The position numbers were made by a program, and so were the translations under genes. Of a stretch of DNA of 64,000 nt, positions 9,068 to 47,426 are shown piece by piece. The DNA is from a virus. Each line of letters begins with the position of its first letter. Within the stretch, counting starts at the first letter, position 1. Location of the stretch: positions 116,406-180,405 of IMG/VR virus record IMGVR_UViG_3300044712_002679. The stretch is one strand, 5' to 3'. A model generated the notes under the pieces. That model saw nothing but the letters and a program-made list of their open reading frames with translations. It did no database searches and was not told the origin of the DNA.

Positions 9068-9084
9068 AATAAGTATAACGTATG

Positions 9085-9157: not shown

Positions 9158-9196
9158 AAAAATATTCAATATGTCAATGAACTTTAAAAAAAATTG

Positions 9197-9282
9197 TGAT
9201 CCCGATGGGACTCGAACCCATGTACAACTTTCGTATCCCACATTAAAAGTGTGGTGCCTCGTTCCAACTCGGCCACGGAATC
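9197..9282 (-). tRNA. Class II (long variable arm) tRNA, anticodon UUU (Lys), discriminator A
   Basis: Base-by-base reverse complement: GATTCCG TG GCC GAGTTGGAACGA GGC A CCACA CTTTTAA TGTGG GATACGAAAGTTGTAC ATGGG TTCGAGT CCCAT CGGGATC A; Ser-like D arm; 86 nt. Confidence 0.7.
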
Positions 9283-21699: not shown

Positions 21700-23271
21700 T
21701 TAATCTAATGTTGTGTATTCAAACCCATCTTTGGTTTTAAAGAATACTATATGTTGAAATTTGCCTAATTTATTTATAATTCCGTGTGCATTAATCCAAG
21801 TAGTTAAACCCTTATTATAATTTAATCGTAATTGTGTAGATGTTCCAACACAACAACTTCCAGAAACCCTAGAAATTGCGTGTGTGTGTCCAACCACATT
21901 TTTAACCGACAATTTTGAAAATTGATTCATTCCACCACGACTGCCAGATGCACCTAAATTTCCATGCATTGAACACAAATATCCATTAACAACAATATTA
22001 TCATTATATGTTAAACAATGAAAATTTGGATATTTTTTATTAATAACATAAGGTACGATACCATTTGGTGCTTCACCTTTTAATATAACACTAGCATATT
22101 CCATATAAGGAATTGCATTTTTTAGTGAATTCATTTTTCTCCAATCAGTTTCACGCAAAAATCTATCAACATGTTCATCATGATTTGATTTCACTATATA
22201 AACATCATAATCTTTTATTTGTGATAACCATTCTAACATTTCATCCAATTCTTTTTGAAGCGAATTTGATCCGTTCATTTCCATTTCGTGTTGTAAAAAT
22301 GGATCATTTGTGTTATGATGTGTTATAGAATATGAATCCATTATATCATGAATAAACAATGTTTTTGGATATAATTTTTGACATAAATCATTTAATGTTT
22401 TATCAATAATTTCAGTATTTACACATTTTGTATGAATATCACCCATTATCAACGCATCAACAGTTTCAATTCTTTTAACAACACCATTATTTACATGATA
22501 AAACAAATCAATAAATTCGCCAGTATCTTTTGCGCTTACTTGTCTAAAGAAATAAGTATCTTCATCTTTTATTTCAACAATAGCAAACCCACTCGAAAAA
22601 TGAAATTCCCCTTTTTTACCAGCCTTTGTATCAGAAAAATTTTGTTTTGTAACTGCACCAGTAGTAAACATTAACTTTGGTTTATATTCATTTATAACTG
22701 GAACTGTTTTTAATTCTATTTTTGGATGTCCAACAACACAAGAATAATCACCTGTCATACCTTCAAGTCCCATTAATGGTGAATAAGCTGTTGGTTGTAT
22801 TTTAACATCACCTAGTACTTGTATTGATTTATTTAAGTTGTGCCTATTTAACGTTAAATGTGGTACAATTTTTTCATCCCACCAATCATTATCAGTATTT
22901 GTATTTATACTTGTTGGGTTGTGATAACGAAAAGGAATTACCAAAATTTCAGCATCAAGAACATCTTTATATGATAACATATTATTCCATAACCCAATAT
23001 TTACACTTGTTGCATTTTGTGCAGAAGTAATAAAATAATATTTTTTTGATTTATCGTGTTGTTTTAATTTTGCAAGTTTTATTTGTTCAGGTATAATAAT
23101 TACTTTTTCTTTTATTCCTAATTTTTCTGAACACCATCTTCTAAGTGTTCTTTCGGATTTATTTGTAAAATCCATAAGTATTTTCATCCTATCATCCCAA
23201 GTTTTTGTTCTATCCCAATATATACTACGAATTTTTTCAATATCTTCATCTTTTAGGTCTTTAAATTTCAT
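21700..23271 (-). CDS. Calcineurin-like metallophosphoesterase with N-terminal HTH-like region
   Basis: ALIMGDIHT, VKSNHDEHVDRF, VVGHTHA motifs in canonical order. Confidence 0.7.
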   Translation of the reverse strand: MKFKDLKDEDIEKIRSIYWDRTKTWDDRMKILMDFTNKSERTLRRWCSEKLGIKEKVIIIPEQIKLAKLKQHDKSKKYYFITSAQNATSVNIGLWNNMLSYKDVLDAEILVIPFRYHNPTSINTNTDNDWWDEKIVPHLTLNRHNLNKSIQVLGDVKIQPTAYSPLMGLEGMTGDYSCVVGHPKIELKTVPVINEYKPKLMFTTGAVTKQNFSDTKAGKKGEFHFSSGFAIVEIKDEDTYFFRQVSAKDTGEFIDLFYHVNNGVVKRIETVDALIMGDIHTKCVNTEIIDKTLNDLCQKLYPKTLFIHDIMDSYSITHHNTNDPFLQHEMEMNGSNSLQKELDEMLEWLSQIKDYDVYIVKSNHDEHVDRFLRETDWRKMNSLKNAIPYMEYASVILKGEAPNGIVPYVINKKYPNFHCLTYNDNIVVNGYLCSMHGNLGASGSRGGMNQFSKLSVKNVVGHTHAISRVSGSCCVGTSTQLRLNYNKGLTTWINAHGIINKLGKFQHIVFFKTKDGFEYTTLD

Positions 23272-28620: not shown

Positions 28621-29154
28621 ATGAAGCAAAAAGAATCAGAAAACAGAATTAATTATTCAATTAAAGATTTAACCGTAAGGTTAGTTGGTGATAATGTTAC
28701 AAATGGTGTAATTGACACTAAAAGTGCAATAAAATTGGCTAGAGATATGGAATTAGATTTGGTCGAAATTTCGGGTCCAGTTAACGGAAATCCATCAATT
28801 TGCAAAATAGTTGACTATCAAAAATATCTTTACGACAAAAAGAAAAAAGATAAAGATCAAAAGAAAAAGCAAAAATTAAGTCAGTCAGAAGTCAAAGAAA
28901 TTAGAATGACCCCGCATACTGATGAACACGATTTTAATTTTAAATTAAATCATGCTAAAAACTTCTTAACCAATAACGATAAAGTATTAGTTTCAGTATT
29001 CTTTAAGGGTAGAGAAATATCATATAAAGAACAAGGTCAAATTGTTTTATTAAAATTTGCAAAGGAATTGGAAGATATTGGCATACCTGAGTATTTACCT
29101 AAACTAGAAGGAAAAAAAATGCTAATGATGATTAAACCTAAACCAAAAAAATAA
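28621..29154 (+). CDS. infC: Translation initiation factor IF-3
   Basis: RINYSIKDLTVRLVGDN...MELDLVEIS...PSICKIVDYQKYLYDKKKK...VKEIRMTPHTDEHDFNFKLNHAKNFL...VFFKGREISYKEQG aligns along the full length with E. coli IF3. Confidence 0.9.
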   Translation: MKQKESENRINYSIKDLTVRLVGDNVTNGVIDTKSAIKLARDMELDLVEISGPVNGNPSICKIVDYQKYLYDKKKKDKDQKKKQKLSQSEVKEIRMTPHTDEHDFNFKLNHAKNFLTNNDKVLVSVFFKGREISYKEQGQIVLLKFAKELEDIGIPEYLPKLEGKKMLMMIKPKPKK

Positions 29155-30716: not shown

Positions 30717-31307
30717 TTATTTTGTGTTTAAATCAAATTCCACTATTTTATCTTTTGGTTTGATTGTTATTATATTAACAATTTTTTTCATATTATATAA
30801 CACCATCATTTTACCATTACCAAATGGATTATTCATTAAATCGTAATCTACTCCATTTTTAATATAAAATTCCCTAAGATATTTGGTATTTGTTGATTTT
30901 ATTGCTTTTTCATTTAAAATAATGTTATTAAAAATATATCCTGGAACTTTACCATCTTTGATATATTTTTCTAATCTATTCATTACCATTTTTTTCAAAC
31001 TTCCAATTACATAAAATTTTATAAATTCTTTAACCTTTTCAATATCTAAAAATACTTTATTAATATCAACACCATATTCAACTGTAATCAAATATAATTT
31101 TCGACTTCCTTTTGCATATCGTATTGCGGTACTATAATCTGTTGCTATATATAAACCAGCACCATACTCATATCTACCATTTTTTTGTGCAATAATATCA
31201 TCATAATGGTCAAGATTTCCACCATGCCAAAAATTCATAGTGTTTGGTATGTTGGGTGGAAAAATTTCTTCTTCGTTTAATTTGAATTTATCAAATTGTA
31301 ATATCAT
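30717..31307 (-). CDS. Hypothetical protein (possible PARP/ART-like H-Y-E fold)
   Basis: FWHGGNLDH...YGAGLYIATDYSTAIRYA resembles hWHGs...G.GiYfA...S.s..Y of PARP-type ARTs; weak. Confidence 0.3.
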   Translation of the reverse strand: MILQFDKFKLNEEEIFPPNIPNTMNFWHGGNLDHYDDIIAQKNGRYEYGAGLYIATDYSTAIRYAKGSRKLYLITVEYGVDINKVFLDIEKVKEFIKFYVIGSLKKMVMNRLEKYIKDGKVPGYIFNNIILNEKAIKSTNTKYLREFYIKNGVDYDLMNNPFGNGKMMVLYNMKKIVNIITIKPKDKIVEFDLNTK

Positions 31308-32896: not shown

Positions 32897-33355
32897 TTAA
32901 ATTAATGATTGAAATTTTACATATTTTTTAGGACACAAATAAAAATTTCGATAACTTTTTTCTTTTTTATCATACAATTCTTTAAAAAACCAATTTTTAT
33001 ATGTACTACTATATATTATTAAACACTTGGTTTTAGAAGCATTTAATATTATATAGCAATATAATGTCCTTATATTTCTTTTATCTATTTTATATTTTTC
33101 ATCAACAATTATATCTTGGTATGGTACATCATCAAATGTCATAAAATCTATTTCTTTCCATTGTTTGACTTCAACCCGCATTGATATTTTTATATCACCA
33201 TCATCAGTATGTTCATATCTCGATTCTTCATCTGGTGTTACAGTATATGGTAAAATCTCACTATCAAAACCCAATTTTGTCATCCAATTATTAACAACAA
33301 TTGTTGCTTTTTTAGCATCATTTAAATTTTGCGTAAAAATGTTTCTGGGTTTCAT
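32897..33355 (-). CDS. Hypothetical protein, possible PD-(D/E)xK nuclease
   Basis: HTDDGDIKISMRVEVKQW fits D..(n)..E.K; 4-nt overlap with the polB fragment. Confidence 0.35.
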   Translation of the reverse strand: MKPRNIFTQNLNDAKKATIVVNNWMTKLGFDSEILPYTVTPDEESRYEHTDDGDIKISMRVEVKQWKEIDFMTFDDVPYQDIIVDEKYKIDKRNIRTLYCYIILNASKTKCLIIYSSTYKNWFFKELYDKKEKSYRNFYLCPKKYVKFQSLI

Positions 33356-34722
33356 ATTGAAAATATTGAATTTAATACTGACAATCTTTTATTTATTGTT
33401 GGTAATCCTATTGGTTCGAGAAAACGATTCACAATATGTAAGAATGTTAAATCAAATTGTTCATCAAAATCAATTTTAACACCTTCTTTTTCTACAATTT
33501 CATATGGATGCATACTTCTTTGAAAAGCAAAAACATTATTTTTAGGATGATTACAATAATAATATTTTATTCTTCCACCTCTTATATTATCATATTTTAC
33601 TTTATATTCCGAATTTTTGTTTAATAAATAATTGTGTAATGCTGCAGCTTTAACACCAAAATGCGCACCTTTAATACATACAACATCGGTTACATCATCT
33701 ATACACTTAATTGAATAATTACTACAACTAGTGGTCATACTAATATCTTCGATATCTGCCATTATAAATTCTCGCTTCATATCTTTAACCAATTTTAAAA
33801 CTTTTCTAATATCAATATTATTAGGATTTCCAAATATATACCTTAAAAAATCATAAATATTTTCTCTAACAAATGGTGGTGTAGAAGATTTAACAATCTC
33901 AACACCCTTTGGATAAAAATATGTCAAATTTTCATAAAAAATTCCATCTTCCCAAACAACATTGTTTATGTAATTCTTTTTTTGAATATGTAATGCTGAA
34001 CGATTAATTGTTTCAAGTTCAAATACATGAAGATTTTTAACACCATATCTTGATGCATATTCAACAAGCCAACTGTTATATAATTTTTCAACAAATATTC
34101 TATTAGCATGTAATATCCAATCCAATTCTTCACCCATATAATTAGATGAATCAATCATTGGTTTAAAAGAAATATATAATGAATCGGTATCACCATATAT
34201 GATTATTGGCTTTTCTTTTGGAATTTGTTCTATATGTGAAAAGTCACCAATTATTCTTTTAAATAAAATATTATAACTTTTAAATTCTTTCTTATCTTCA
34301 ATTAAATCGAATTTATTTATATTTAACTTTTTTAATAACCCATCATCACCATCTAATGAATTGTGTGGATAATTAATATTCATTCCATTAATATCCAACA
34401 AGAAATATTTACCTTCTTTTTCGGCTATATATTCTAAACCTAATCTTTTGTGGGTTTCGATATCCAAATGCCACTCATTATAAAAATATTGTTCAATTTT
34501 TTTCAACATAAAATTTATAACATCACGACCATGTGCAGTAATAGCATTTGCTATATGTGAATTTGATATTACAAAATGCGGATTTGCGAATGCGCCGTAT
34601 GTTCCGTTAATCACGAGCTTAAGTGCTAATTGCATCGCTTTCGCTCTATCATATTCAGCTTTTGTTTCGTCTATTCGACTTTTTAATTCCGCAATTTTTT
34701 GTCTTTTTTCATCAGGTGTCAT
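33352..34722 (-). CDS. Family-B DNA polymerase, C-terminal half only (fingers motif B, palm motif C, thumb)
   Basis: KLVINGTYG (motif B KxxxNSxYG) about 35 codons after its own ATG, and IIYGDTDSLY (motif C). No exonuclease motifs or motif A in this ORF. The upstream neighbour is on the other strand. Confidence 0.85.
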   Translation of the reverse strand: MTPDEKRQKIAELKSRIDETKAEYDRAKAMQLALKLVINGTYGAFANPHFVISNSHIANAITAHGRDVINFMLKKIEQYFYNEWHLDIETHKRLGLEYIAEKEGKYFLLDINGMNINYPHNSLDGDDGLLKKLNINKFDLIEDKKEFKSYNILFKRIIGDFSHIEQIPKEKPIIIYGDTDSLYISFKPMIDSSNYMGEELDWILHANRIFVEKLYNSWLVEYASRYGVKNLHVFELETINRSALHIQKKNYINNVVWEDGIFYENLTYFYPKGVEIVKSSTPPFVRENIYDFLRYIFGNPNNIDIRKVLKLVKDMKREFIMADIEDISMTTSCSNYSIKCIDDVTDVVCIKGAHFGVKAAALHNYLLNKNSEYKVKYDNIRGGRIKYYYCNHPKNNVFAFQRSMHPYEIVEKEGVKIDFDEQFDLTFLHIVNRFLEPIGLPTINKRLSVLNSIFSI

Positions 34723-34815
34723 TTAATATAATATATTTTTCTATATTTAGCATAAAAAAATTTTTTTGTTTATAAATTGTTTTCTGTTTTTAATATATAA
34801 GAAAAAAAATACAAT

Positions 34816-36458: not shown

Positions 36459-37232
36459 TTATAATAAATTTGGGATGTGTATAAACACAGTTACTATTCT
36501 AGTTGTCGTCGTCGTTGTCGTAGGTGCTACGGTTGTCGTCGTCGTTGTCGTAGGTGCTACGGTTGTCGTCGTCGTTGTTATTGGTCTTCTAGTAGTTGTC
36601 GTCGTTGTTATTGGTCTTCTAGTAGTTGTCGTCGTTGTTATTGGTCTTCTAGTAGTTGTCGTCGTTGTTATTGGTCTTCTAGTAGTTGTTGTCGTTGTTG
36701 TTATTGGTCTTCTAGTAGTTGTTGTCGTTGTTGTTATTGGTCTTCTAGTAGTTGTTGTCGTTGTTGTTATTGGTCTTCTAGTAGTTTTTGGTCTATTTGT
36801 TATTATTTTTGATCTATTTACAGATGATAATAATACAATTGTTGTAGTAATTGTTGTAGTTGGAACAAAAATAAAATCAGATTCAAATATTCGTAAATTC
36901 ATAGTATGCCAATCTGTTGCTGTTTCTGAAAAAGCAAAAAATATATTTGTTCCTGTTGAATATTTAATTTTAGCTATTGAAATTATATAATAATTTAAAA
37001 ATTTATTTATTAATAAATAATTTGAATTATTATTTGATAAATATTGTACTAAATTTTTGCTATAACCCTTACCTCTTAAAGATAATGGAATTGTATTGAA
37101 ATCAATTTCAACTTCAGCTAAAAATGTGATATTATTTTTTTCAAAAAAATCAAATATATTAGAATATGTGCCAGATTTAAGTTTAAATTTAACATAATGA
37201 TCATTTAACCAACAATATCCAACATTTGTCAT
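36459..37232 (-). CDS. Thr-rich (mucin-like) repeat protein
   Basis: About 125-aa N-terminal domain followed by RRPITTTTTT(T) x7 and VAPTTTTTTT x2. Confidence 0.7.
   Translation of the reverse strand: MTNVGYCWLNDHYVKFKLKSGTYSNIFDFFEKNNITFLAEVEIDFNTIPLSLRGKGYSKNLVQYLSNNNSNYLLINKFLNYYIISIAKIKYSTGTNIFFAFSETATDWHTMNLRIFESDFIFVPTTTITTTIVLLSSVNRSKIITNRPKTTRRPITTTTTTTRRPITTTTTTTRRPITTTTTTTRRPITTTTTTRRPITTTTTTRRPITTTTTTRRPITTTTTTVAPTTTTTTTVAPTTTTTTTRIVTVFIHIPNLL
36497..36790. repeat. 30/33-bp tandem repeats encoding the poly-Thr linker
   Basis: GGTCTTCTAGTAGTTGT(TGT)CGTCGTTGTTATT units read directly. Confidence 0.9.
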
Positions 37233-37585: not shown

Positions 37586-38122
37586 TTATTTATTAATTAA
37601 TTCTTTAATTGCATTTATTCCGTTTTCATTAATGTTCCTCGTACCGATTCCAGCAAATTTTTTTGTTAATTTTGGTATTTCTTCATATATTTCAAAACTT
37701 TCTGATTCATAATCATAATAATACCATTGATTAGCAGTTTGTTCAAACAAAAAAATTGGTTTTTTATTATCTATTGCACAAGATACTGCATATCCTGTTC
37801 CACCACATACGTTATTTATATCATCTAACATACCAATAGCAAAAATAGTATCTGAACATTTTACTTGAAACCAATCTCTTGATATTAAATTTTTAATATA
37901 CGATGATAGATTTGAAATATTTCGATTTAATCTAACATTAGCAATTTTAATATGTTCATATCCTTCTTTAAGCTGTTTTGGTGACAATATATGACGGTTC
38001 TTTGAATCTGTATCGTGACCATCAAAAGAAAATGCGACTACATCAAAACCTTTCTTTATAGCTTCATTTTCGAATATAGTATCTGATCCTTTTGCACCCC
38101 CAGAATAACAAGTATATTTCAT
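37586..38122 (-). CDS. SLOG-like Rossmann-fold protein (GGAxGxD motif)
   Basis: MKYTCYSGGAKGSDTIFENEAIKKG at the N-terminus, as in DprA/LOG/DUF2493-type SLOG domains. Confidence 0.4.
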   Translation of the reverse strand: MKYTCYSGGAKGSDTIFENEAIKKGFDVVAFSFDGHDTDSKNRHILSPKQLKEGYEHIKIANVRLNRNISNLSSYIKNLISRDWFQVKCSDTIFAIGMLDDINNVCGGTGYAVSCAIDNKKPIFLFEQTANQWYYYDYESESFEIYEEIPKLTKKFAGIGTRNINENGINAIKELINK

Positions 38123-38733: not shown

Positions 38734-39498
38734 TTATATTGTTAATTCTAATGCTATTAATAAACTGGTATTTTGATTATCTATAAATAAAAAAGTGTCA
38801 AACACATAGACTGTAATATCATCTTCTGTGAATGTTATAGATTTAAAATATTTTTTGGGGAATGTTATTGATAAGTCATCGTGGGTTATATCACAAATTT
38901 TAAGATTCCATTGTATATCTTCACCAATCGAAAGACTATTATCAGTTATATCTAATGTAAGAATATCATTTTCATTATCAACTGCTCCAATTTTTTTAAT
39001 TTTTGTAAATGAATTTTTATCTAATGTGAATTTAAAATCCATATTATTTATATTGACAGTTTTTTTAATTTTTTCGATATCAATATTTGTGTTCATACCC
39101 CGAATATCACCACCAATAATACTTAATTTTAATTTAGAATTTTTTAATTTTAAATTATCTGCATACGTATCATCGTTCATAAAAAATTCACAATTGACAC
39201 TTTCATCATAATCTAAATAATTTTTAAGTGTACTTTCAAATTTAGCACCCTTTTTGACGATATATCTAATTTCTTGTGTTATATCATCAGTAAATGAAAA
39301 AACTTCATTTGTTTTAAAAATAAATGATTTAAATGCATTTACATTTGATTTTTCACCTACAACCACATAAAATAATGTGTCATTTTTATTTATTTTAAAA
39401 AGAATTTCATCATCAATTGATAAAAGATCATGGATTTTATCCAAGAAAAAGTTTAACTGTTGTATTGACATGCTAAACTTGTATGAAATATTCGACAT
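38734..39498 (-). CDS. Possible DNA polymerase sliding clamp
   Basis: 254 aa, beta-rich two-halves pattern and size typical of phage gp45/PCNA-like clamps; no diagnostic motif, judged by overall look only. Confidence 0.3.
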   Translation of the reverse strand: MSNISYKFSMSIQQLNFFLDKIHDLLSIDDEILFKINKNDTLFYVVVGEKSNVNAFKSFIFKTNEVFSFTDDITQEIRYIVKKGAKFESTLKNYLDYDESVNCEFFMNDDTYADNLKLKNSKLKLSIIGGDIRGMNTNIDIEKIKKTVNINNMDFKFTLDKNSFTKIKKIGAVDNENDILTLDITDNSLSIGEDIQWNLKICDITHDDLSITFPKKYFKSITFTEDDITVYVFDTFLFIDNQNTSLLIALELTI

Positions 39499-39680: not shown

Positions 39681-40418
39681 ATGTCAAAAATAATCGAATT
39701 AATAAAGATCCATTTTGGTGATAATTCATTTACACCATATGGGCAATGGATTAAAATATTTAAACTTTTTGTTGAAAATTCATCTGAATCAACCAAACAT
39801 AAAATTGATCAAATAGATGAATTTATAAATAAATGGATTGAAAAAGAATATGGTGATTGGTCTATTCCAAATACAATTATAGAAGCCAAAGAAAAATTAG
39901 AAAATAAAATTAATGTTTTTTATGAAATATTAAAAGAATATTCTATAAATAATGAAAAAATTAAAAAAATTATAATAATTCCTGATACTAATGCGCTAAT
40001 ACAAAAACCTGATCCAAAGTCATATAAACAATTAATGAATAACGATAATCTAACGATTATTTTTTTACCTACTGTGTTAAGTGAACTAGATGAACTTAAA
40101 ATTAAAACTTCAAATTTAGATTTTCAAGAAAAAGTAAAATCAGTAATAAATAGATTAAAAGGATATAGAAAACAAGGCAACTTAATTGATGATGATGTAA
40201 CAGTCGAAAAAACAATAAAACTTAAAATGGTTGCATCAGAACCAAATTTTGATAAAACGTTATCTTGGCTTGATAGAAATAACAATGATGATCGGATAGT
40301 TGCAAGTGCATTAGAAATTCAACGGGATAATCCTTCTTCTGTTGTTTGTTTAATAACAAGTGACATAAATTTTCAAAATAAAATAATGATGGCAAAATTA
40401 CCATACAAAGATATATAG
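39681..40418 (+). CDS. PIN-domain protein (putative ribonuclease)
   Basis: C-terminal half: IIIPDTNALI, LPTVLSELDEL, NNNDDRIVASAL, LITSDINFQNK supply the four acidic PIN positions in order. Confidence 0.65.
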   Translation: MSKIIELIKIHFGDNSFTPYGQWIKIFKLFVENSSESTKHKIDQIDEFINKWIEKEYGDWSIPNTIIEAKEKLENKINVFYEILKEYSINNEKIKKIIIIPDTNALIQKPDPKSYKQLMNNDNLTIIFLPTVLSELDELKIKTSNLDFQEKVKSVINRLKGYRKQGNLIDDDVTVEKTIKLKMVASEPNFDKTLSWLDRNNNDDRIVASALEIQRDNPSSVVCLITSDINFQNKIMMAKLPYKDI

Positions 40419-40488: not shown

Positions 40489-41808
40489 ATGACAAAAACA
40501 GAAGAATTTATCCAAAAAGCGAAACTTGTTCACGGGGATAAATATAATTATTCTAAAGTCGAATATATTAATAATCACACTAAAGTTACTATTATTTGTC
40601 CAAAGCATGGTGAATTTAAACAACAACCAGCAAATCATTTAAATAATATGGGTTGTCCAAAATGTGTTGGCAATATAAAATTAACAACAACAGATTTTTT
40701 ATCAAAAGCAAAAGAAATTCATGGGGATAAATATGATTATTCAAAAGTTGAATATGTCGGAATATTTAATCACGTGAAAATAATTTGTCCAATTCATGGG
40801 GAATTTGAACAAACACCAAGACAACATCTTAAAGGTCGTGGGTGTTATAAATGTGGTGGTACACAAAAATATACACAAAATGAATATGTTATAAAAGCAA
40901 AGGAACTTCACGGGGATAAATATGATTATTCAAAAGTTAATTATTTGGGTGGTAGAAAAGATATAATTATAATTTGTCCTAAACACGGTGAATTTAAACA
41001 AAAAGCTGGTCAACATATACATGGTTCAGGTTGTCCAAATTGTGCTGGATTAGGGTTTATATTTCTATCATTTGAAGAAGCAAAAATTTTTGTTAAAAAT
41101 CTTAATTTACAAACACAAAATGAATGGCAAAAATATTGTAAATCGGGAAATAAACCTGATAATATACCAATAGCACCCGAAATTGTTTATAAAAAAGTTT
41201 GGATTAACTGGGGTGATTGGTTGGGTACATTTAAAATTTCAAATCAAAAAAAAGAATATTGGACATTTGAAGAAGCTAGAATATTTGTTAGAAATCTTAA
41301 TTTAAAATCAATAACAGAATGGAAAAGATATTGTAAAAATGAAAATAAACCTAGCAATATTCCAAATGATCCATACGGAACGTATAATAAATATGGTTGG
41401 TTAAATTGGGGTGATTTTTTAGGCTCATTTACATTAGCACCAAAAGATAGACAATATTTATCATTTGAAGAAGCAAGAAATTTTGTTAGAACACTTAATT
41501 TAAATTCAAAAGAAAAATGGGTAAATTATTGTAAATCGGGAAGTAAGCCTAACAATATTCCAAATGATCCATATAGTTATTATAAAGATGATGGTTGGAT
41601 TGATATGGGGGATTGGTTGGGTACATTTACAATTGCCCCACGATATAAACAATTAAATTATCTTTCAGAAGAAGAATTCATACAATTTATTAAAGATACA
41701 TTTCCAAATTTATATGGTGCTGAACTTCATAAAGCATATGAAGCTTGGTGGGATGAAAATAAACCAGAATATTTACCAAAGGATGTTGCTAAATATTATA
41801 ATAAATAA
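40489..41808 (+). CDS. WGDWLG-repeat family protein 1 (3 Zn-ribbon modules + 3 repeats + conserved tail)
   Basis: HGDKY.YSKV.Y...V.IICP.HGEF.Q....H..G.GCP.C x3; F.EAR.FVR.LNLKS..EW..YCKSG.KP.NIP..P...Y...GW..WGDWLG x3; tail NYLSEEEFIQFIKDTFP...AWWDENKPEYLPKDVAKYYNK. Confidence 0.85.
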   Translation: MTKTEEFIQKAKLVHGDKYNYSKVEYINNHTKVTIICPKHGEFKQQPANHLNNMGCPKCVGNIKLTTTDFLSKAKEIHGDKYDYSKVEYVGIFNHVKIICPIHGEFEQTPRQHLKGRGCYKCGGTQKYTQNEYVIKAKELHGDKYDYSKVNYLGGRKDIIIICPKHGEFKQKAGQHIHGSGCPNCAGLGFIFLSFEEAKIFVKNLNLQTQNEWQKYCKSGNKPDNIPIAPEIVYKKVWINWGDWLGTFKISNQKKEYWTFEEARIFVRNLNLKSITEWKRYCKNENKPSNIPNDPYGTYNKYGWLNWGDFLGSFTLAPKDRQYLSFEEARNFVRTLNLNSKEKWVNYCKSGSKPNNIPNDPYSYYKDDGWIDMGDWLGTFTIAPRYKQLNYLSEEEFIQFIKDTFPNLYGAELHKAYEAWWDENKPEYLPKDVAKYYNK

Positions 41809-41811
41809 TTT

Positions 41812-43515
41812 ATGTCAAAAAAACGACCTTTTTTATCATTTGAAAATGCTAGATTTTTTTCACGATCTATTAATTTAAAAAGTGGGAAAGAATGGAAAGA
41901 ATTTTGCAAATCAGGTAATAAGCCTGATAATATACCAACAAATCCATATGAAGTATACAAAAAAGAATGGATTAGTATGGGTGATTGGTTAGGGACATTT
42001 TCGGTTCATACTAAAAATTTTTTATCATTTAATGAAGCAAGAATTTTTGCTAGATCAAATAATTTCAAAAATAGAGAAGATTGGAAATTATATTGTAAAT
42101 CGGAAAATAAACCTAATAATATTCCGACAAATCCATATGAAGTATACAATAAAGAATGGATTAGTTGGGGGGATTGGCTAGGAACAAAAATAGGATTTGA
42201 AGGATTTTTATCATTTGAAGAAGCTAGAAATTATGTTAGAAATCTGAACTTAAAATCAAATAAAGAATGGTATAAATATTGTAAGTCAGGAGATAAGCCT
42301 GATAATATTCCATCTACACCAAATAAAAAATATAAAAATTGTGGTTGGACTAATTGGTATGATTGGTTTGGAACAAAAATTGAATTTGAAGGATTTTTAT
42401 CATTTGAAGAAGCTAGAAATTATGTTAGAAACCTGAATATAAAATCATCAAATGATTGGGCTAAATATTGTAAATCTGGAAATAAACCTAATAATATTCC
42501 AAGTAATCCACGTGAAGTATATAAAAATGAATGGAATGATTGGGGTGATTGGTTAGGAACATTTACTATATCAACACAAAACTATGTGTATTTATCATTT
42601 GATGATGCAAGAAATTTTGCTAGAAATCTTAATCTAAAAACACAAACATATTGGAGGAAGTATTGTAAATCGGGAAATAAACCTGATAATATACCAAGTG
42701 ATCCATCCAAAGGTTATAAAGATAAAGGTTGGCTTAGTTGGGGTGATTGGTTAGGTACAAAAATTGGATTTAATGGGTTTTTACCATTTGAAGATGCAAG
42801 AAATTTTGTTAGAAATCTTAATCTAAAAACCCAATATGAATGGAAAGTGTATCTTAATAGTGGAAACAAACCTAACAATATTCCAAATAAACCACGGGAT
42901 GTATATAAAGATTGGATTAGTATGGATGATTGGTTAGGTACTTTTGTGATATCAACCCATAAACAAAAATTTTTATCATTTGATGAAGCAAGAATATTTG
43001 TTAAAAATCTTAGATTAATCGGTAAAGATGATTGGTATAATTATTGTAAAAGCGGAAACAAACCAACGGATATTCCAACTACACCCAATACCGTTTATAG
43101 TGAATGGGTGGGTTGGGGTGATTGGTTAGGAACATATAATATAGCATCATTTGATAAAGAATTTTTATTGTTTAATGATGCGAGAAATATTATTAGAAAC
43201 AAAAATTTTAAAAATCAAAATGAATGGTTTGAATATTGCAAATCGGGAAATAAGCCAAAAAACATTCCAAGTGATCCATCAAAAACCTATATAAATGATT
43301 GGATTGATTGGGGTGATTGGTTGGGTACATTTACTATTGCAACCCAAAATAAACAATTAAATTATCTTTCAGAAGAAGATTTCATACAATTTATTAAAGA
43401 CACATTTCCAAATATTCCACCTGGAATTGAACTTCGCAAAGCATATGAAGCTTGGTGGGATGAAAATAAACCTGATTATTTACCAAAGGATGTTGCAGGA
43501 TACTACAATAAATAA
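41812..43515 (+). CDS. WGDWLG-repeat family protein 2 (8 repeats + tail)
   Basis: Eight consecutive ~57-aa repeats counted in the translation; tail nearly identical to protein 1. Confidence 0.85.
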   Translation: MSKKRPFLSFENARFFSRSINLKSGKEWKEFCKSGNKPDNIPTNPYEVYKKEWISMGDWLGTFSVHTKNFLSFNEARIFARSNNFKNREDWKLYCKSENKPNNIPTNPYEVYNKEWISWGDWLGTKIGFEGFLSFEEARNYVRNLNLKSNKEWYKYCKSGDKPDNIPSTPNKKYKNCGWTNWYDWFGTKIEFEGFLSFEEARNYVRNLNIKSSNDWAKYCKSGNKPNNIPSNPREVYKNEWNDWGDWLGTFTISTQNYVYLSFDDARNFARNLNLKTQTYWRKYCKSGNKPDNIPSDPSKGYKDKGWLSWGDWLGTKIGFNGFLPFEDARNFVRNLNLKTQYEWKVYLNSGNKPNNIPNKPRDVYKDWISMDDWLGTFVISTHKQKFLSFDEARIFVKNLRLIGKDDWYNYCKSGNKPTDIPTTPNTVYSEWVGWGDWLGTYNIASFDKEFLLFNDARNIIRNKNFKNQNEWFEYCKSGNKPKNIPSDPSKTYINDWIDWGDWLGTFTIATQNKQLNYLSEEDFIQFIKDTFPNIPPGIELRKAYEAWWDENKPDYLPKDVAGYYNK

Positions 43516-43518
43516 TTT

Positions 43519-44823
43519 ATGTCAAAAAAATTAACAACAGAAGAATTCATTATTAAAGCCAAAGGTGTTCATGGTGATAAATATGATTATTCTAAAGTTG
43601 ATTATGTTAATAATCATATTAAAGTTACTATTATTTGTCCAATACATGGTATTTTTGAACAAACACCAAGTAATCATTTACAAGGTAAGAATTGTATTAA
43701 TTGTGGTTCTTATAATCAATCTAATACCATAAAAAATAAAAATATATCATTTGAAGAATCAAGAAATTTTGTTAGAAATCTTAATTTGAAATCGCAAAAA
43801 GAATGGAATAAATATATTAAATCAGGTAATAAACCTGATAATATTCCAAGTATGCCAAATCGAATATATAAAAATAAAGGTTGGATTAGTATGGGTGATT
43901 GGTTAGGAACTTTTACAATAGCATCATATAAAAAAATTTTTTTACCATTTGAAGAAGCAAGAATTTTTGCTAGAAATCTTAATTTAAATTCACAAAAAGA
44001 ATGGTTAAAATATCGAAAATCTGATAATAAACCTGATAATATTCCAAGTAATCCATATAGTGTATATAAAAATGATGGTTGGTTATCATGGGGTGATTGG
44101 TTAGGAACAAAAAATGATTTTAATGGATTTTTACCATTTGATGATGCTAGAAATTTTGCTAGAAATCTTAATTTAAAACCATATGATAAATGGAAAAAAT
44201 ATTGTAAATCAGGAAATAAACCTAACAATATTCCAAGTAGTCCTGATAAAGTATATAAAAATAAAGGTTGGATTGATTTTGGTGATTGGTTAGGTTATAA
44301 AAAAGATTTTTTATCATTTGAAGAAGCCAGAACTTTTGTTAGAAATCTTAATTTAAAATCACAAAAAGAATGGATTGAATATTGTAAATTAGGAAATATG
44401 TTAGATAATATACCAAGTAATCCACAACATACTTATAAAAATAAAGGTTGGATTAGTTGGGGTGATTGGTTAGGCACATTTACTATTTATAAAAACAATT
44501 TTTTACCATTTGAAGAAGCAAGAATATTCGCAAGAAATCTTAATTTAAAATACAAAAAGAAATGGATTGATTATTGTAAATATGGTAATAAACCAAATAA
44601 TATTCCATCTGATCCATATCGTACATATAAAAATAATGGATGGGTTAGTTTTGGTAATTGGTTAGGTACTGAATATTTATCGGAAGAAGAATTCCAACAA
44701 TTTATTATTGATAATTTTTCAGATGTTCATCCTGATGATATGAATAAATTTTATGAAATATGGTGGAATGATAATCAACCAATTAATTTACCAAAATATC
44801 CAAAAGAATATTATAATAAATAA
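43519..44823 (+). CDS. WGDWLG-repeat family protein 3 (1 Zn-ribbon module + 5 repeats + tail)
   Basis: As above; gene junction ATAAATAATTTATGTCAAAAAAA identical to the junction between proteins 1 and 2. Confidence 0.85.
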   Translation: MSKKLTTEEFIIKAKGVHGDKYDYSKVDYVNNHIKVTIICPIHGIFEQTPSNHLQGKNCINCGSYNQSNTIKNKNISFEESRNFVRNLNLKSQKEWNKYIKSGNKPDNIPSMPNRIYKNKGWISMGDWLGTFTIASYKKIFLPFEEARIFARNLNLNSQKEWLKYRKSDNKPDNIPSNPYSVYKNDGWLSWGDWLGTKNDFNGFLPFDDARNFARNLNLKPYDKWKKYCKSGNKPNNIPSSPDKVYKNKGWIDFGDWLGYKKDFLSFEEARTFVRNLNLKSQKEWIEYCKLGNMLDNIPSNPQHTYKNKGWISWGDWLGTFTIYKNNFLPFEEARIFARNLNLKYKKKWIDYCKYGNKPNNIPSDPYRTYKNNGWVSFGNWLGTEYLSEEEFQQFIIDNFSDVHPDDMNKFYEIWWNDNQPINLPKYPKEYYNK

Positions 44824-44877
44824 AATAAAAATTTTTTAAAAAACTTACAATAAATTTGCTTTTTCGTAATAAAAACT

Positions 44878-44885
44878 TATATTTG
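44878..44885 (+). promoter_or_regulatory. -7 promoter box TATATTTG
   Basis: 28 nt upstream of ATG 44914; a second match TAAATTTG at 44851..44858. Confidence 0.55.
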
Positions 44886-44913
44886 CACAATGTTTAATTA
44901 AAAATATAAGTTT

Positions 44914-45546
44914 ATGAAAAAGTTTTTATCATTTGAAGAAGCAAAGGCATTTGCACAAAGTTTAAATTTAAAATCCTTAAAGGATTGGAAAGATTACTGT
45001 AAATCGGGTAACAAACCTAATAATATTCCAAATGATCCGTACAGTGCATATAAAAACAACAATTGGATTTCGTGGGGTGATTGGTTGGGTACATTTAGGG
45101 TTTCGAATAGGAACAAACAGTTCATATCTTTTGAAGAAGCAAAAGAAATTATCAAAAAATTAAATTTGAAAAACCGAAAAGATTATGAAAAATATCAATC
45201 AGATATGATTGAAAAACTTAATAATGCGACTGTACCAACAAATCCAAATGTTGTATATAGTAGTTCTTGGAAAAGTTGGAATGATTTTTTGGGTATAGAA
45301 CCAAATGAATTTCTTCCATTTGAAGAAGCAAGGAATTTTGTGCGATCACTTAATTTAAAAAGTGTTCGGGATTGGGAAAAATACAGAAAACAAAAACCTG
45401 ATAATATTCCATCTTTACCAAGTAGTTATTATAAAGAAAAATGGATAAATTGGGGGGATTGGTTAGGAACAAACAATGTTGCTACTAAATACGTATCATT
45501 CGAAGATGCAAAAAATATTGTTCGTAAATTAAAAGATTCAAAATGA
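44914..45546 (+). CDS. WGDWLG-repeat family protein 4 (3 repeats + truncated 4th, no tail)
   Basis: Ends inside a repeat (YVSFEDAKNIVRKLKDSK*), ATGA overlap with the next gene. Confidence 0.8.
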   Translation: MKKFLSFEEAKAFAQSLNLKSLKDWKDYCKSGNKPNNIPNDPYSAYKNNNWISWGDWLGTFRVSNRNKQFISFEEAKEIIKKLNLKNRKDYEKYQSDMIEKLNNATVPTNPNVVYSSSWKSWNDFLGIEPNEFLPFEEARNFVRSLNLKSVRDWEKYRKQKPDNIPSLPSSYYKEKWINWGDWLGTNNVATKYVSFEDAKNIVRKLKDSK

Positions 45547-46670
45547 AAAAGGAATTTTTACCATTTGAAGAAGCAAGAACATTCGTAAGATGCCTTAATT
45601 TAAAATCTTTTAAAGATTGGAAAAAATATTGTAAATCTGGAAATAAACCTATTAATATCCCATCTTGTCCTCATGTTATATATAAAAATGATTGGATTAG
45701 TTGGGGGGATTGGATAGGAACATTTTCAGTTCATACTAAAGAATTTTTACCTTTCGAAGAAGCAAGAAATTTTGTTTATACTAAAAATTTGAAAAATCAA
45801 GCTGAATGGTGGATATATTGTAAATCTGGAAATAAACCTGATAATGTGCCGTGTTCACCTGACATAATTTATAAAAATAATGGTTGGAATGGTTGGTATG
45901 ATTGGTTTGGATATGATAAAATATCGGTTTTAAAAAATAACTTCATAATAAAAGCTAACATTGTCCATAATAATAAATTTGATTATTCAAAAGTTAATTA
46001 TATTAATGTTAAAAATAAAGTTATAATTGGATGTCCCATACATGGTGATTTTGAACAAACTATAAATGGACATTTAAATGGTAGGGGGTGTTCAAAATGT
46101 GCTAAAATTGATTATAGATCATTTGAAAATGCTAGAAATTTTGTTCATTCTTTAAATTTACAAACGAATGCGGAATGGATAATTTTTAATAAAAGCGAAA
46201 ATATGCCTAAAGATATTCCACATAACCCAAATGTTGTATATAAAGATAATGGTTGGATTAGCATAGGTGATTGGTTAGGAACAAATTCAATTGCACCACA
46301 ATATATGAAATATAGAACATTTGAAGAAGCTAAAATTTTTGCACAAAAGCAAAATTTAAAATCTAAAGATGAATGGAAAGTATTTAAAAAATCCGAAAAT
46401 TTTCCTATTGATATACCTAAAAATCCAAACGTTACATATAAAGATAATGGATGGATTTCTTGGGGTGATTTTTTAGGTACATTTACATTAGCACCAAAAA
46501 ATATATCAAAAAATTATTTATCGGAAGAAGCAGCCAAACAATTTCTTATTGCTAATTTTTCAGATGTTCATCCCGATGATATGGATGATGCTTATGAAAA
46601 ATGGTGGAATAATAATCAACCAATTAATTTACCAAAACATATAAAATTACATTATAAATTGTTTTATTAA
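45543..46670 (+). CDS. WGDWLG-repeat family protein 5 (2 repeats + Zn-ribbon module + 2 repeats + tail)
   Basis: Module order read from the translation. Confidence 0.85.
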   Translation: MKKEFLPFEEARTFVRCLNLKSFKDWKKYCKSGNKPINIPSCPHVIYKNDWISWGDWIGTFSVHTKEFLPFEEARNFVYTKNLKNQAEWWIYCKSGNKPDNVPCSPDIIYKNNGWNGWYDWFGYDKISVLKNNFIIKANIVHNNKFDYSKVNYINVKNKVIIGCPIHGDFEQTINGHLNGRGCSKCAKIDYRSFENARNFVHSLNLQTNAEWIIFNKSENMPKDIPHNPNVVYKDNGWISIGDWLGTNSIAPQYMKYRTFEEAKIFAQKQNLKSKDEWKVFKKSENFPIDIPKNPNVTYKDNGWISWGDFLGTFTLAPKNISKNYLSEEAAKQFLIANFSDVHPDDMDDAYEKWWNNNQPINLPKHIKLHYKLFY

Positions 46671-46673
46671 AAA

Positions 46674-47426
46674 ATGAAAAAGGAATTCTTATTATTTGAA
46701 GAAGCTAGAAATTTTGTTAGAAATCTTAAATTAAAATCACAAAAAGAATGGAACAAATATATTAAATCAGGAAATAAACCTGATAATATTCCAAGTGATC
46801 CATATATTGCTTATAAAGATAATGGTTGGCTTAATTGGGGTGATTGGTTAGGTACATTTACTATAAAAAATAAAGATTTTTTACCATTTGAAGAATCAAG
46901 AAATTTTGTTAGAACACTTAAATTTAACAATAGAAAAAAATGGAAATTGTATTGTAAATCTGGTAAACCTGATAATATTCCAAGTAATCCAAACGTTGTA
47001 TATAAAGATAATGGTTGGTATAATTGGGGTGATTGGTTAGGAACATATACAATTGCAACATTTAATAAAGAATATTTATCATTTTATGATGCTAAAATAT
47101 ATGTTCATACATTAAATTTAAAAACCAAAATTGAATATGTTAAATATATTAAATCTGGTAATAAACCTGATAATATTCCAAGTGATCCATATAAGGTTTA
47201 TTACGATAAAGGTTGGATTAATTGGGGTGATTGGTTAGGTACATTTACTATTTCAAATCAAAATAAACAATTATATTATTTATCAGAAGAAGAATTTCAA
47301 CAATTTATTATTGCTAATTTTTCAGATATTCATCCAGATGATATGGATGAAGCTTATAGTAATTTTTGGAATAAAAATGAACCTATAAATTTACCAAAAT
47401 ATCCAAAAATATTTTATAATCAATAA
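46674..47426 (+). CDS. WGDWLG-repeat family protein 6 (3 repeats + tail)
   Basis: Module order read from the translation. Confidence 0.85.
   Translation: MKKEFLLFEEARNFVRNLKLKSQKEWNKYIKSGNKPDNIPSDPYIAYKDNGWLNWGDWLGTFTIKNKDFLPFEESRNFVRTLKFNNRKKWKLYCKSGKPDNIPSNPNVVYKDNGWYNWGDWLGTYTIATFNKEYLSFYDAKIYVHTLNLKTKIEYVKYIKSGNKPDNIPSDPYKVYYDKGWINWGDWLGTFTISNQNKQLYYLSEEEFQQFIIANFSDIHPDDMDEAYSNFWNKNEPINLPKYPKIFYNQ

What the first reader, a model, noticed from the sequence alone, without database searches (positions are those of the whole stretch)
33352..34722. Split family-B DNA polymerase: only the motif B/C/thumb half is here, as an independent gene
The ORF begins with its own ATG about 35 codons before motif B (KLVINGTYG) and contains YGDTDS (motif C) and a thumb. 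It has no exonuclease domain or motif A. The DNA immediately upstream encodes an opposite-strand gene, then a protease and a Thr-rich protein. The N-terminal half is therefore not adjacent. Split gp43 genes are known in a few T4-like phages, where a mobile insertion separates the two halves. Here the halves appear to be separated by much more, or the N-half may be replaced (see the stand-alone exonuclease at 17920). A possible PD-(D/E)xK nuclease overlaps the 3' end by 4 nt.
Basis: partly seen in the sequence, partly recalled or inferred. Interest (0 to 1): 0.65.

Follow-up and report, generated by a model that had tools for sequence, protein, structure and literature searches.

The report
Stand-alone C-terminal half of phage PolB
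This gene encodes only the back half of a huge phage's replicative DNA polymerase. In related phages the front half is a separate gene 80-280 kb away, so the enzyme is most likely built from two separately made proteins, a known trick in an unusually scattered layout.

Summary
ORF 33352-34722 (-) encodes 456 aa that match only positions 136-453 of the 453-position Pfam family-B polymerase model. It has motif B (KLVINGTYG), motif C (YGDTDS), KKNY and a thumb, but no exonuclease domain and no motif A.

No N-terminal half lies anywhere in the 64-kb window.

The split is real and clade-wide:
- More than 120 protein clusters of close relatives are all 318-619 aa.
- dN/dS is 0.05-0.16.
- Complete huge-phage genomes (735-kb LR756501, LR756502, LR756504, LR745206, LR756500, Lak-A2) each carry one N-half ORF (about 470-515 aa, with Exo I-III and motif A) and one C-half, 13-281 kb apart.
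- In a window-clade contig with a C-half 76% identical to the window's, the halves lie 85 kb apart.

The break falls at the finger tip, about RB69 gp43 residues 505-535. This is the same place as the known bicistronic gp43 splits of T4-like phages. It is a clean cut: 24 + 34 residues against 61 in an intact relative.

I found no intein, intron or recombination repeats at the break. Non-covalent assembly into a composite active site is therefore the best model.

The stand-alone exonuclease at 17920 is not a replacement for the N-half.

This is a new member of a known kind. The unlinked arrangement in megaphages appears undescribed in the literature I could search.

The parts
33352..34722 (-). 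Gene for the C-terminal subunit of a split family-B DNA polymerase (456 aa): second fingers helix, C-terminal part of the palm, thumb and C-terminal tail
   Evidence: The ORF was listed. PF00136 matches profile positions 136-453 of 453 (E 1.9e-15). PHROG 1918 matches at E 1.7e-47. It is 48% identical to a stand-alone ORF of the 735-kb phage LR756501. dN/dS against relatives is 0.05-0.16. The AF2 model matches RB69 gp43.
34621..34722 (-). N-terminal 34 residues (MTPDEKRQKIAELKSRIDETKAEYDRAKAMQLAL): the C-terminal side of the finger tip, predicted to be one long helix that runs into motif B. Proposed docking surface for the tail of the N-half.
   Evidence: Coordinates were verified. The model shows a helix over residues 3-38. 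The start (MT..EKR.KI.ELK) is conserved in relatives. The N-half tail (24 aa) plus this head (34 aa) gives 58 aa, against 61 aa in the intact MaF61 finger tip.
34594..34620 (-). Motif B, KLVINGTYG (equivalent to RB69 K560/N564/Y567), which binds the incoming dNTP
   Evidence: verified the coordinates. The profile aligns to RB69 537-606. K35, N39, Y42 and G43 are invariant in 30 relatives.
34180..34197 (-). Motif C, YGDTDS, holding the catalytic aspartates (equivalent to RB69 D621/D623)
   Evidence: verified the coordinates. The motif aligns to RB69 from residue 614. It is invariant in relatives. In many relatives it is a hot spot for 0.5-kb or 1.6-1.7-kb insertions, but it is uninterrupted here.
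33970..33981 (-). KKNY, the KKxY primer-terminus binding motif of the palm
   Evidence: verified the coordinates. It aligns to the RB69 KKRY region. K249 and Y251 are invariant.
33355..33393 (-). Conserved C-terminal tail NKRLSVLNSIFSI, inferred to be the sliding-clamp-binding peptide
   Evidence: N444, K445, R446, L447, V449, L450, S452 and F454 are invariant or nearly so. The function is inferred by analogy with the C-terminal clamp-binding tail of T4/RB69 gp43 (my own knowledge, not tested).
34723..34815 (.). 93-bp AT-rich intergenic region between the C-half gene and the divergent 133-aa ORF. Presumed own promoter and translation start region.
   Evidence: The sequence was read. The consensus promoter scan is uninformative in this roughly 25% GC DNA (24 sites found, 30 expected). 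No Rfam match at E<=1.
32897..33355 (-). Downstream 152-aa ORF whose ATG overlaps the polymerase stop (ATGA). Possibly co-translated; function unknown.
   Evidence: The overlap was seen. It has no Pfam or PHROG hit. It is not conserved next to the C-half in the 76%-identical relative.

Best explanation
The ORF is one of two subunits of the phage's replicative family-B (T4 gp43-type) DNA polymerase.

1. The ancestral gene was cut at the tip of the fingers hairpin.
2. This gene makes the second fingers helix with motif B, the part of the palm with motif C and KKxY, the thumb, and a conserved C-terminal tail.
3. A separate gene outside the window is predicted to make the N-terminal domain, the 3'-5' exonuclease, motif A and the first fingers helix. 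In the closest relatives it lies about 85-96 kb away.
4. The two proteins are translated independently. They reassemble non-covalently by re-forming the antiparallel fingers hairpin and the palm sheet.
5. This gives a composite active site: the motif A aspartate comes from one chain and the motif C aspartates from the other.

Shown: the domain content, the break position, the independent conserved start and stop, purifying selection, one N-half plus one C-half in every complete relative, and their wide separation.

Inferred: that this particular genome holds the N-half, that the halves bind each other, and that the complex is the active replicase.
For: Domain content and motifs.

Break position:
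- The window-clade N-half aligns to MaF61 PolB residues 14-558, and the window ORF residues 8-454 align to MaF61 561-994.
- The N-half profile aligns to RB69 113-504. The C-half profile starts at RB69 about 537.
- Tail plus head is 58 aa against 61 aa in the intact finger tip.

It is a real gene:
- dN/dS is 0.14-0.16 against 75-77%-identical relatives, and 0.05 between closer relatives.
- The exact protein occurs in an independent Logan assembly.
- The best 120 relatives of the C-half are 318-619 aa. Those of the N-half are 455-543 aa.
- Of the best 150 representatives of 50%-identity clusters, only about nine are full length.

Pairing in complete genomes, one place each:
- LR756501: N 90290-91693 (-), C 709490-710920 (+).
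- LR756504: 281 kb apart.
- LR756502: 132 kb apart.
- LR745206: 101 kb apart.
- LR756500: 13 kb apart.
- Lak-A2: 221 kb apart.

Pairing on single IMG/VR contigs:
- 3300029923_000008: C-half 76% identical to the window, halves 85 kb apart.
- 3300028859_000009: about 96 kb apart.
- 3300035208_009193: about 118 kb apart.
- 3300037067_007156: about 117 kb apart.
- 3300042261_001186: about 81 kb apart.

N-halves carry Exo I (FVDIENE) and motif A (DFASLYP) and end in a charged helical tail.

Precedents that such halves work:
- Finger-tip-split gp43 of T4-like phages, and an engineered finger-tip split of Pfu that keeps full activity (PMC3061061).
- PhiKZ gp82+gp50, which form a stable 1:1 split PolB with motif A and motif C on different chains (PMC13648687).
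Against: - The N-half of this very genome was not seen. Only 64 kb are available, and the only other assembly carrying the exact protein is 8.7 kb long.
- No physical or structural test of the N-C interaction could be run.
- The single-chain model has low confidence at residues 27-56 and 241-276. That is expected if these regions need the partner, but it is not proof.
- The promoter scan was uninformative.
Confidence: 0.85

Rival explanations
1. The two halves are joined after expression into one chain, or one gene is re-formed. The routes would be protein trans-splicing by a split intein at the break (as in Nanoarchaeum PolB), RNA trans-splicing by split intron halves, or a programmed DNA inversion that brings the halves together.
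For: - Inteins do occur in this lineage. Relatives have inteins at motif C (P0049 has PF14890; Lak-A2). The window has a Hint domain in an IMPDH-like ORF at its right end.
- In several genomes the halves lie on opposite strands, so a single inversion could fuse them (coordinates).
Against: - The C-half begins MTPDEKRQK..., with no C-intein (no ...HN followed by C/S/T) and no Hint or intein Pfam hit.
- N-halves carry only PF03104 and PF00136, and end in a short helical tail rather than an N-intein of about 100 aa.
- The tail and head lengths add up to an intact finger tip.
- The start codon and MT start are conserved.
- No Rfam intron turns up at E<=1 or E<=0.1 at either break flank.
- Break flanks share no repeats beyond 11-15-nt chance matches in AT-rich DNA.
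Confidence: 0.05
2. The ORF is a decaying fragment left over from a disrupted PolB. Replication relies on another, intact polymerase elsewhere in the genome.
For: The chain lacks motif A and cannot be catalytic alone. The rest of this genome was not seen.
Against: - Purifying selection is strong (dN/dS 0.05-0.16).
- All catalytic motifs are invariant across 30 relatives.
- The same architecture recurs in more than 120 clusters, and in complete genomes ranging from Lak phages to the 735-kb phage.
- Those genomes show no intact PolB: one N place and one C place per record.
Confidence: 0.03
3. The N-half has been replaced. The C-half works with the stand-alone exonuclease at 17920-18615, or another protein, instead of a canonical N-half.
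For: The window encodes a 231-aa exonuclease. It matches PF10108 DNA_pol_B_exo2 (E 4e-14) and PHROG 25228 '3'-5' exonuclease', and more weakly PHROG 403 'DNA polymerase exonuclease subunit'.
Against: - That protein has no palm or motif A, so it cannot supply the second catalytic aspartate.
- Every relative examined, including two contigs of the window's own clade, keeps a canonical N-half with motif A.
Confidence: 0.03
4. Assembly or sequencing artefact: a frameshift or chimeric join cut a normal PolB gene.
For: None found.
Against: - The identical protein, in the same local gene order, is in an independent Logan assembly.
- The same start and stop occur in many independent metagenomes.
- The upstream neighbour is on the opposite strand.
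- No PolB N-terminal similarity appears in any frame of the window.
Confidence: 0.01

Closest known systems
Bicistronic, finger-tip-split gp43 (43A/43B) of T4-related phages 133, 44RR, 31, 25 and 65 (Petrov et al. 2006, 2010, as summarised in PMC3061061)
   Same: The polymerase lineage is the same: RB69 gp43 is the best solved relative. The break is in the same place, between the two fingers helices. Both have two independently translated chains and no intein.
   Different: There the two cistrons are adjacent, 2 bp to 3 kb apart, and often separated by a mobile insertion. Here no N-half lies within 29-33 kb on either side, and relatives have it 81-281 kb away, often on the other strand.
Sphingomonas phage PAU gp105 + gp110, and Chryseobacterium phage MA9V-1 gp135 + gp138 (cultured jumbo phages, each pair annotated as two DNA polymerase CDSs)
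   Same: Both show the same finger-tip split. N-halves are 487 and 495 aa, ending after the first fingers helix. C-halves are 404 and 425 aa, starting before motif B. These are the nearest cultured relatives with the split.
   Different: The halves are collinear and only 2.2-2.4 kb apart, with 2-4 genes between them. In PAU the gene just upstream of the C-half is the sliding clamp gp109 (PMC4889955). C-half identity to the window is only 22-23%.
PhiKZ split PolB, DNAP-N (gp82) + DNAP-C (gp50) (PMC13648687)
   Same: It is a jumbo-phage family-B polymerase made of two separately encoded chains. It forms a stable 1:1 complex, with the motif A aspartate on one chain and the motif C aspartate on the other.
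   Different: The split lies in a large palm insertion, before the fingers, so DNAP-C keeps both fingers helices. It belongs to a very divergent PolB clade and has an extra Rhc subunit.
Methanothermobacter thermautotrophicus split PolB (Kelman et al. 1999, cited in PMC3061061)
   Same: The two halves are encoded by genes far apart (85 kb) and form an active enzyme.
   Different: It is archaeal, and the split is in the palm, about 83 residues C-terminal to the finger-tip position.
Flavobacterium phage MaF61 PolB (994 aa, intact)
   Same: It is the closest uninterrupted homologue found. The window ORF aligns to its residues 561-994, and the window-clade N-half to residues 14-558.
   Different: It is a single chain with a continuous 61-aa finger tip.

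Membership tests
Family B DNA polymerase, polymerase domain (Pfam PF00136) | Motif B (Kx3NSxYG) in the second fingers helix | tested here: met
   KLVINGTYG at residues 35-43. It aligns to RB69 537-606. K, N, Y and G are invariant in relatives.
Family B DNA polymerase, polymerase domain (Pfam PF00136) | Motif C (YGDTDS) with the catalytic aspartates, KKxY, and a thumb reaching the end of the profile | tested here: met
   YGDTDS at 176-181 and KKNY at 248-251. The Pfam match runs to position 453 of 453. Foldseek best hits are RB69 gp43.
Family B DNA polymerase, polymerase domain (Pfam PF00136) | Motif A (DxxSLYPS) and the Exo I-III domain on the same polypeptide | tested here: not met
   Profile positions 1-135 are absent and there is no PF03104 hit. 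No such sequence occurs anywhere in the window. The ORF is therefore a subunit, not a complete PolB.
Finger-tip-split gp43-type polymerase (43A/43B) | Break between the two antiparallel fingers helices | tested here: met
   N-halves end at RB69 about 504-509 and the C-half begins at RB69 about 526-537. The break maps to MaF61 residues 558/561.
Finger-tip-split gp43-type polymerase (43A/43B) | A partner ORF carrying the N-terminal domain, Exo I-III, motif A and the first fingers helix in the same genome | not testable with these tools
   Only 64 kb of this genome is available. The feature is met in every relative with enough sequence: six complete GenBank genomes and five IMG/VR contigs.
Finger-tip-split gp43-type polymerase (43A/43B) | The two cistrons adjacent (2 bp to 3 kb apart, per PMC3061061) | tested here: not met
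   No N-half lies within 33 kb on one side or 29 kb on the other. Relatives have the halves 13-281 kb apart.
Finger-tip-split gp43-type polymerase (43A/43B) | The halves associate and give polymerase activity | not testable with these tools
   This needs biochemistry or multimer modelling. It is supported only by precedent (PMC3061061, PMC13648687).
PHROG 1918 (stand-alone 'DNA polymerase' C-half family, 382 positions) | Full-length match to the family profile | tested here: met
   E 1.7e-47, with residues 7-454 matching profile positions 15-380 of 382.
Split-intein trans-spliced PolB (Nanoarchaeum type) | N-intein at the end of the N-half and C-intein at the start of the C-half | tested here: not met
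   The window ORF has no intein or Hint Pfam hit, and neither do the N-halves (precomputed Pfam). The termini are short helical segments that sum to a normal finger tip.

The most novel reading that the evidence does not exclude
The finger-tip split with unlinked halves may be an ancient shared trait of a very large radiation of megaphages: Lak, the 630-735-kb 'uncultured phage' genomes, and the window clade. The largest known phages would then replicate with an obligate two-subunit PolB. Unlinking the genes may be functional rather than neutral. It could allow separate timing or stoichiometry of the two subunits. It could also allow the C-half, which carries the thumb and the inferred clamp-binding tail, to pair with alternative partners such as the stand-alone PolB-like exonuclease at 17920.
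Probability: 0.12. Interest if true: 0.6.

Novelty: new member of a known kind. Interest (0 to 1): 0.35.

Why it matters
For annotation, half-size PolB genes in huge-phage bins should not be called fragments, pseudogenes or signs of incompleteness. PolB-based phylogenies and completeness checks must look for two genes that can lie hundreds of kb apart.

For biology, the replicase of the largest known phages is probably a heterodimer with a composite active site. That gives a natural series for studying how an essential enzyme tolerates gene fission and later dispersal:
- intact (MaF61);
- 2 kb apart (PAU, MA9V-1);
- 13 kb apart (LR756500);
- 80-280 kb apart (Lak and the 630-735-kb genomes).

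For enzymology, natural finger-tip-split polymerases may be of interest. An engineered split at this site in Pfu, combined with a Q484R point mutation, broadened the range of nucleotide analogues accepted (PMC3061061).

Tried and rejected
1. Searching the window for the N-half with the intact MaF61 PolB and nine stand-alone N-halves found nothing.
2. Megablast of 10 kb of the window against GenBank phages gave no match, so the source genome is not in that collection.
3. Looking up the exact protein gave only an 8.7-kb Logan contig, so the partner gene of this genome could not be reached.
4. I tried to get the coordinates of both halves on a 711,471-bp contig. That is the longest contig listed for both P0010 (C-half) and P0242 (N-half), which suggests but does not prove that they share it. 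The look-ups returned shorter contigs only.
5. The consensus promoter/terminator scan was uninformative in roughly 25% GC DNA.
6. The test for recombination-site repeats at the break flanks in three genomes gave only chance-level 11-15-mers.
7. Rfam scans for intron pieces found nothing.
8. I guessed that ORF 38734-39498 is the sliding clamp, by analogy with PAU gp109 next to gp110. This stayed inconclusive:
 - BLASTP against gp109 was negative.
 - There was no Pfam or PHROG hit.
 - The single-sequence model had pLDDT 45.
 - Foldseek gave only weak scattered clamp hits at E>0.1.
9. The PD-(D/E)xK call for the downstream 152-aa ORF found no support in Pfam or PHROGs.
10. Literature searches for a description of unlinked PolB halves in Lak phages or huge phages found none. 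This is not proof that none exists, because subscription journals and supplements were not covered.
Full report
**What is in the window.** The window is about 25% G+C. It looks like part of a very large phage genome:
- twelve tRNA genes;
- an IF3 homologue;
- a primase-like gene, a helicase and methyltransferases.

ORF 33352-34722 on the minus strand encodes 456 aa. Pfam PF00136 (DNA_pol_B) matches residues 11-438 to profile positions 136-453 of 453, at E 1.9e-15. The front of the polymerase domain, which holds motif A, is therefore absent, and so is the whole exonuclease domain.
- motif B, KLVINGTYG, residues 35-43;
- motif C, YGDTDS, residues 176-181;
- KKNY, residues 248-251;
- a conserved C-terminal tail, NKRLSVLNSIFSI.

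A profile built from relatives aligns to RB69 gp43 residues 537-606 and 614-788. An AlphaFold model (pLDDT 76.5) has RB69 gp43 as its best structural matches (Foldseek E 1e-8, probability 1.0). The upstream neighbour is a 133-aa ORF on the other strand. Beyond it lie a protease-like gene and a Thr-rich repeat protein. The stop codon overlaps the ATG of a 152-aa ORF in the sequence ATGA.

**Is the other half nearby?** No. I ran tblastn on all six frames of the window with the intact PolB of Flavobacterium phage MaF61 and with nine stand-alone N-halves from relatives. Two of those N-halves come from the window's own clade. The only real hit was the C-half ORF itself. Everything else had E of 0.01 or worse. 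The window covers about 33 kb on one side of the gene and 29 kb on the other.

**Is the split real?** Yes, on five lines of evidence.
1. The exact protein, with the same neighbours, occurs in an independent Logan assembly.
2. The best 120 relatives in the 5.8-billion-protein collection, at 52-87% identity, are all 318-619 aa long. None is full length.
3. Among the best 150 representatives of 50%-identity clusters, only about nine are full-length polymerases of 747-980 aa. The rest are stand-alone C-halves or pieces of them.
4. PHROGs already holds a 382-position family of such proteins, which the window ORF matches end to end (PHROG 1918, E 1.7e-47).
5. Pairwise dN/dS is 0.14-0.16 between the window gene and 75-77%-identical relatives, and 0.05 between closer relatives. 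The start (MT..EKR.KI.ELK) and all catalytic residues are conserved.

**Where is the N-half in relatives?** The nearest GenBank genomes are the uncultured huge phages LR756501/503 (735 kb; C-half 48% identical to the window's), LR756502, LR745206, LR756504 and LR756500, and the Prevotella Lak megaphages. tblastn with N-terminal halves finds exactly one place in each genome. Each is a stand-alone ORF of about 470-515 aa. It carries Exo I (FIDIETE or FVDIENE) and motif A (DFASLYP), and it ends shortly after the first fingers helix.

| Genome | N-half | C-half | Separation |
|---|---|---|---|
| LR756501 | 90290-91693 (-) | 709490-710920 (+) | about 618 kb as the record is laid out; about 115 kb if the genome is circular |
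| LR756504 | 255890-257326 (+) | 537995-539212 (-) | 281 kb |
| LR756502 | 253889-255310 (+) | 120498-121907 (-) | 132 kb |
| LR745206 | 232839-234272 (+) | 130580-131992 (-) | 101 kb |
| LR756500 | 262680-263870 (-) | 248786-249598 (-) | 13 kb, collinear |
| Lak-A2 | 123184-124479 (-) | 345589-347614 (+) | 221 kb |

In IMG/VR, five contigs carry both halves.

| Contig | C-half identity to window | Separation |
|---|---|---|
| 3300029923_000008 | 76% | about 85 kb |
| 3300028859_000009 | 79% over a partial match | about 96 kb |
| 3300035208_009193 | not window clade | about 118 kb |
| 3300037067_007156 | not window clade | about 117 kb |
| 3300042261_001186 | not window clade | about 81 kb |

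The first two belong to the window's own clade. Stand-alone N-halves of that clade are also numerous, at 455-502 aa. A separation of about 85-96 kb explains why a 64-kb window shows only one half.

**Where exactly is the break?**
- The window-clade N-half aligns to MaF61 PolB residues 14-558.
- The window ORF, residues 8-454, aligns to MaF61 residues 561-994.
- Against RB69 gp43, N-halves align through residues 504-509. The C-half begins around residue 537, or about 526 if extrapolated to its first residue.

The cut therefore falls in the loop at the tip of the two-helix fingers domain. Count from the conserved R-K-x-x-K of the first helix to motif B of the second. The window clade has 24 residues on the N-half plus 34 on the C-half, which is 58 in total. 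The uninterrupted MaF61 protein has 61. This is a clean fission. No dimerisation domain was added and no polymerase sequence was lost. Both new ends are charged and helical...NQKHEELEKLKDELKKLEETAL on the N-half, and MTPDEKRQKIAELKSRIDETKAEYDRAKAMQLAL on the C-half. The model places a helix over residues 3-38.

**How the enzyme most likely works.** No single chain holds a full active site. The motif A aspartate lies on the N-half, and the motif C aspartates lie on this ORF. The simplest model has four steps:
1. The two genes are translated independently.
2. The chains associate non-covalently.
3. This re-forms the fingers hairpin and the palm sheet.
4. The complex acts as the replicase.

The C-half also supplies the thumb. 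It probably supplies the clamp-binding tail too. That last point is an inference from T4/RB69 gp43 and rests on my own knowledge.

Three precedents make the model credible:
- T4-like phages 133, 44RR, 31, 25 and 65 have natural finger-tip splits (PMC3061061).
- Pfu polymerase split at the finger tip keeps wild-type kinetics and PCR performance, even when rebuilt from separately purified fragments (PMC3061061).
- PhiKZ gp82 and gp50 form a stable 1:1 split PolB, with motif A and motif C on different chains, shown by cryo-EM (PMC13648687).

**Rivals tested.**
- *Covalent rejoining.* I found no support. No intein domain sits at either terminus. No Rfam intron match appears at E<=1 around the window start site, or at E<=0.1 around three break flanks of relatives. 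The DNA upstream of the C-half and downstream of the N-half shares no repeats beyond chance in three genomes.
- *Pseudogene.* This conflicts with the purifying selection and the conservation described above. Complete relatives also have no intact PolB.
- *Replacement by the exonuclease.* The 231-aa protein at 17920-18615 matches PF10108 and PHROG 25228. It has no palm or motif A, and every relative keeps a true N-half.
- *Assembly artefact.* This is excluded because the same structure recurs in many independent assemblies.

**Comparison with what is known.** The protein belongs to the gp43-type PolB lineage and to the known class of finger-tip-split polymerases. Two cultured jumbo phages show the same split:
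- PAU: gp105 (487 aa) and gp110 (404 aa).
- Chryseobacterium phage MA9V-1: gp135 (495 aa) and gp138 (425 aa).

In both, the halves are collinear and only 2.2-2.4 kb apart. Each half is annotated as a DNA polymerase. In PAU the gene immediately upstream of the C-half is the sliding clamp (PMC4889955).

What differs here is the loss of linkage. The halves are tens to hundreds of kb apart, often on opposite strands, and in non-conserved contexts. Even the 76%-identical relative has different neighbours. The examples form a graded series:

| Stage | Example |
|---|---|
| Intact | MaF61 |
| About 2 kb apart | PAU, MA9V-1 |
| 13 kb apart | LR756500 |
| 80-280 kb apart | Lak, the 630-735-kb phages, the window clade |

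Unlinked split PolBs are already known in Methanothermobacter (palm split, genes 85 kb apart). PhiKZ also has a split PolB made from two separate gene products (gp82 and gp50, split in a palm insertion). Iyer et al. noted a split Pol III alpha encoded by distant genes in Lak-type phages, but described their PolB as 'classic' (PMC7824862). I found no paper describing unlinked PolB halves in Lak phages or huge phages. That search does not cover subscription journals or supplements.

**Verdict.** The feature is a genuine and strongly conserved gene for one subunit of a two-piece replicative polymerase. Mechanistically it is a new member of a known kind. The modest novelty is that the fission products have become unlinked across a large radiation of megaphages. 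This matters mainly for annotation, phylogenetics and completeness estimates of huge-phage genomes. Interest: 0.35.

Noticed in passing
window 5092-9282 (-): A cluster of 12 tRNA genes on the minus strand. One match spans 135 nt (5309-5443), which suggests an intron or insertion in that tRNA.
   Followed up: no
window 63314-64000 (+), ORF runs off the window end: An IMPDH/GMP-reductase-like ORF (PF00478) is interrupted from residue 178 by a Hint/intein domain (PF13403 Hint_2; sequence ...GNGGGCFVENTKV...). Inteins are therefore active in this genome, although none sits in the polymerase gene.
   Followed up: partly
window 17920-18615 (-): A stand-alone 231-aa 3'-5' exonuclease of the PolB-exo2 type: PF10108 at E 4e-14, PHROG 25228 at E 9.5e-35, and a weaker match to PHROG 403 'DNA polymerase exonuclease subunit'. 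Its role next to a PolB that already has its own exonuclease half is unexplained.
   Followed up: partly
L010, L012, L015 (about 1.6-1.7 kb); L014 and L144 (about 0.5 kb); L019 (Lak-A2): In many relatives the C-half gene is itself interrupted exactly at motif C (around residue 180). The insert is either a mini-intein of about 160 aa (P0049 carries PF14890) or a 1.6-1.7-kb element. Lak-A2 has an intein after DTDS. The window's copy is uninterrupted.
   Followed up: partly
window 38734-39498 (-): A 254-aa ORF 4 kb from the polymerase gene. Its first half is predicted to have a beta-alpha-beta-beta-beta pattern like a sliding-clamp domain. BLASTP against the PAU clamp gp109 was negative, it has no Pfam or PHROG hit, the model has pLDDT 45, and only weak clamp hits appeared (E>0.1). 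Its identity is unresolved.
   Followed up: partly
window 40489-47426 (+): Six consecutive large ORFs are built from many copies of a module of about 60 aa (LSFEEARxFVRxLNLKSxxEWxxYCKSGNKPxNIPxxPxxxYKxxGWxxWGDWLGT). Some have zinc-ribbon-like N-termini. This is an expanded paralogous family of unknown function (translations).
   Followed up: no
window 36459-37232 (-): A protein with seven tandem copies of RRPITTTTTT(T), followed by VAPTTTTTTT repeats. The complementary strand gives a spurious Val-rich ORF.
   Followed up: no
window 28621-29154 (+): A phage-encoded translation initiation factor IF3 homologue (PF05198 and PF00707 on the identical gene in L006).
   Followed up: no
L001 7845-9545 (LR756501) and relatives P0065, P0075, P0082: C-halves of the LR756501-like clade carry an extra N-terminal segment of about 47 aa before the conserved head. 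Many also carry long acidic C-terminal tails ending in DDFW(N/S) or DDLLD, which the window clade lacks.
   Followed up: no
window 32897-33355 (-): A 152-aa ORF coupled to the polymerase stop by ATGA. It has no Pfam or PHROG hit, and it is not conserved downstream of the C-half in a 76%-identical relative.
   Followed up: partly
window 30717-31307 (-), 37586-38122 (-), 39681-40418 (+), 21700-23271 (-): Other annotated neighbours, in the order of the coordinates given: a weak PARP/ADP-ribosyltransferase-like protein; a DprA-like protein (PHROG 768); a PIN-domain protein (PF13638); and a 523-aa match to PHROG 1745 'DNA transfer protein' at E 9e-134.
   Followed up: no
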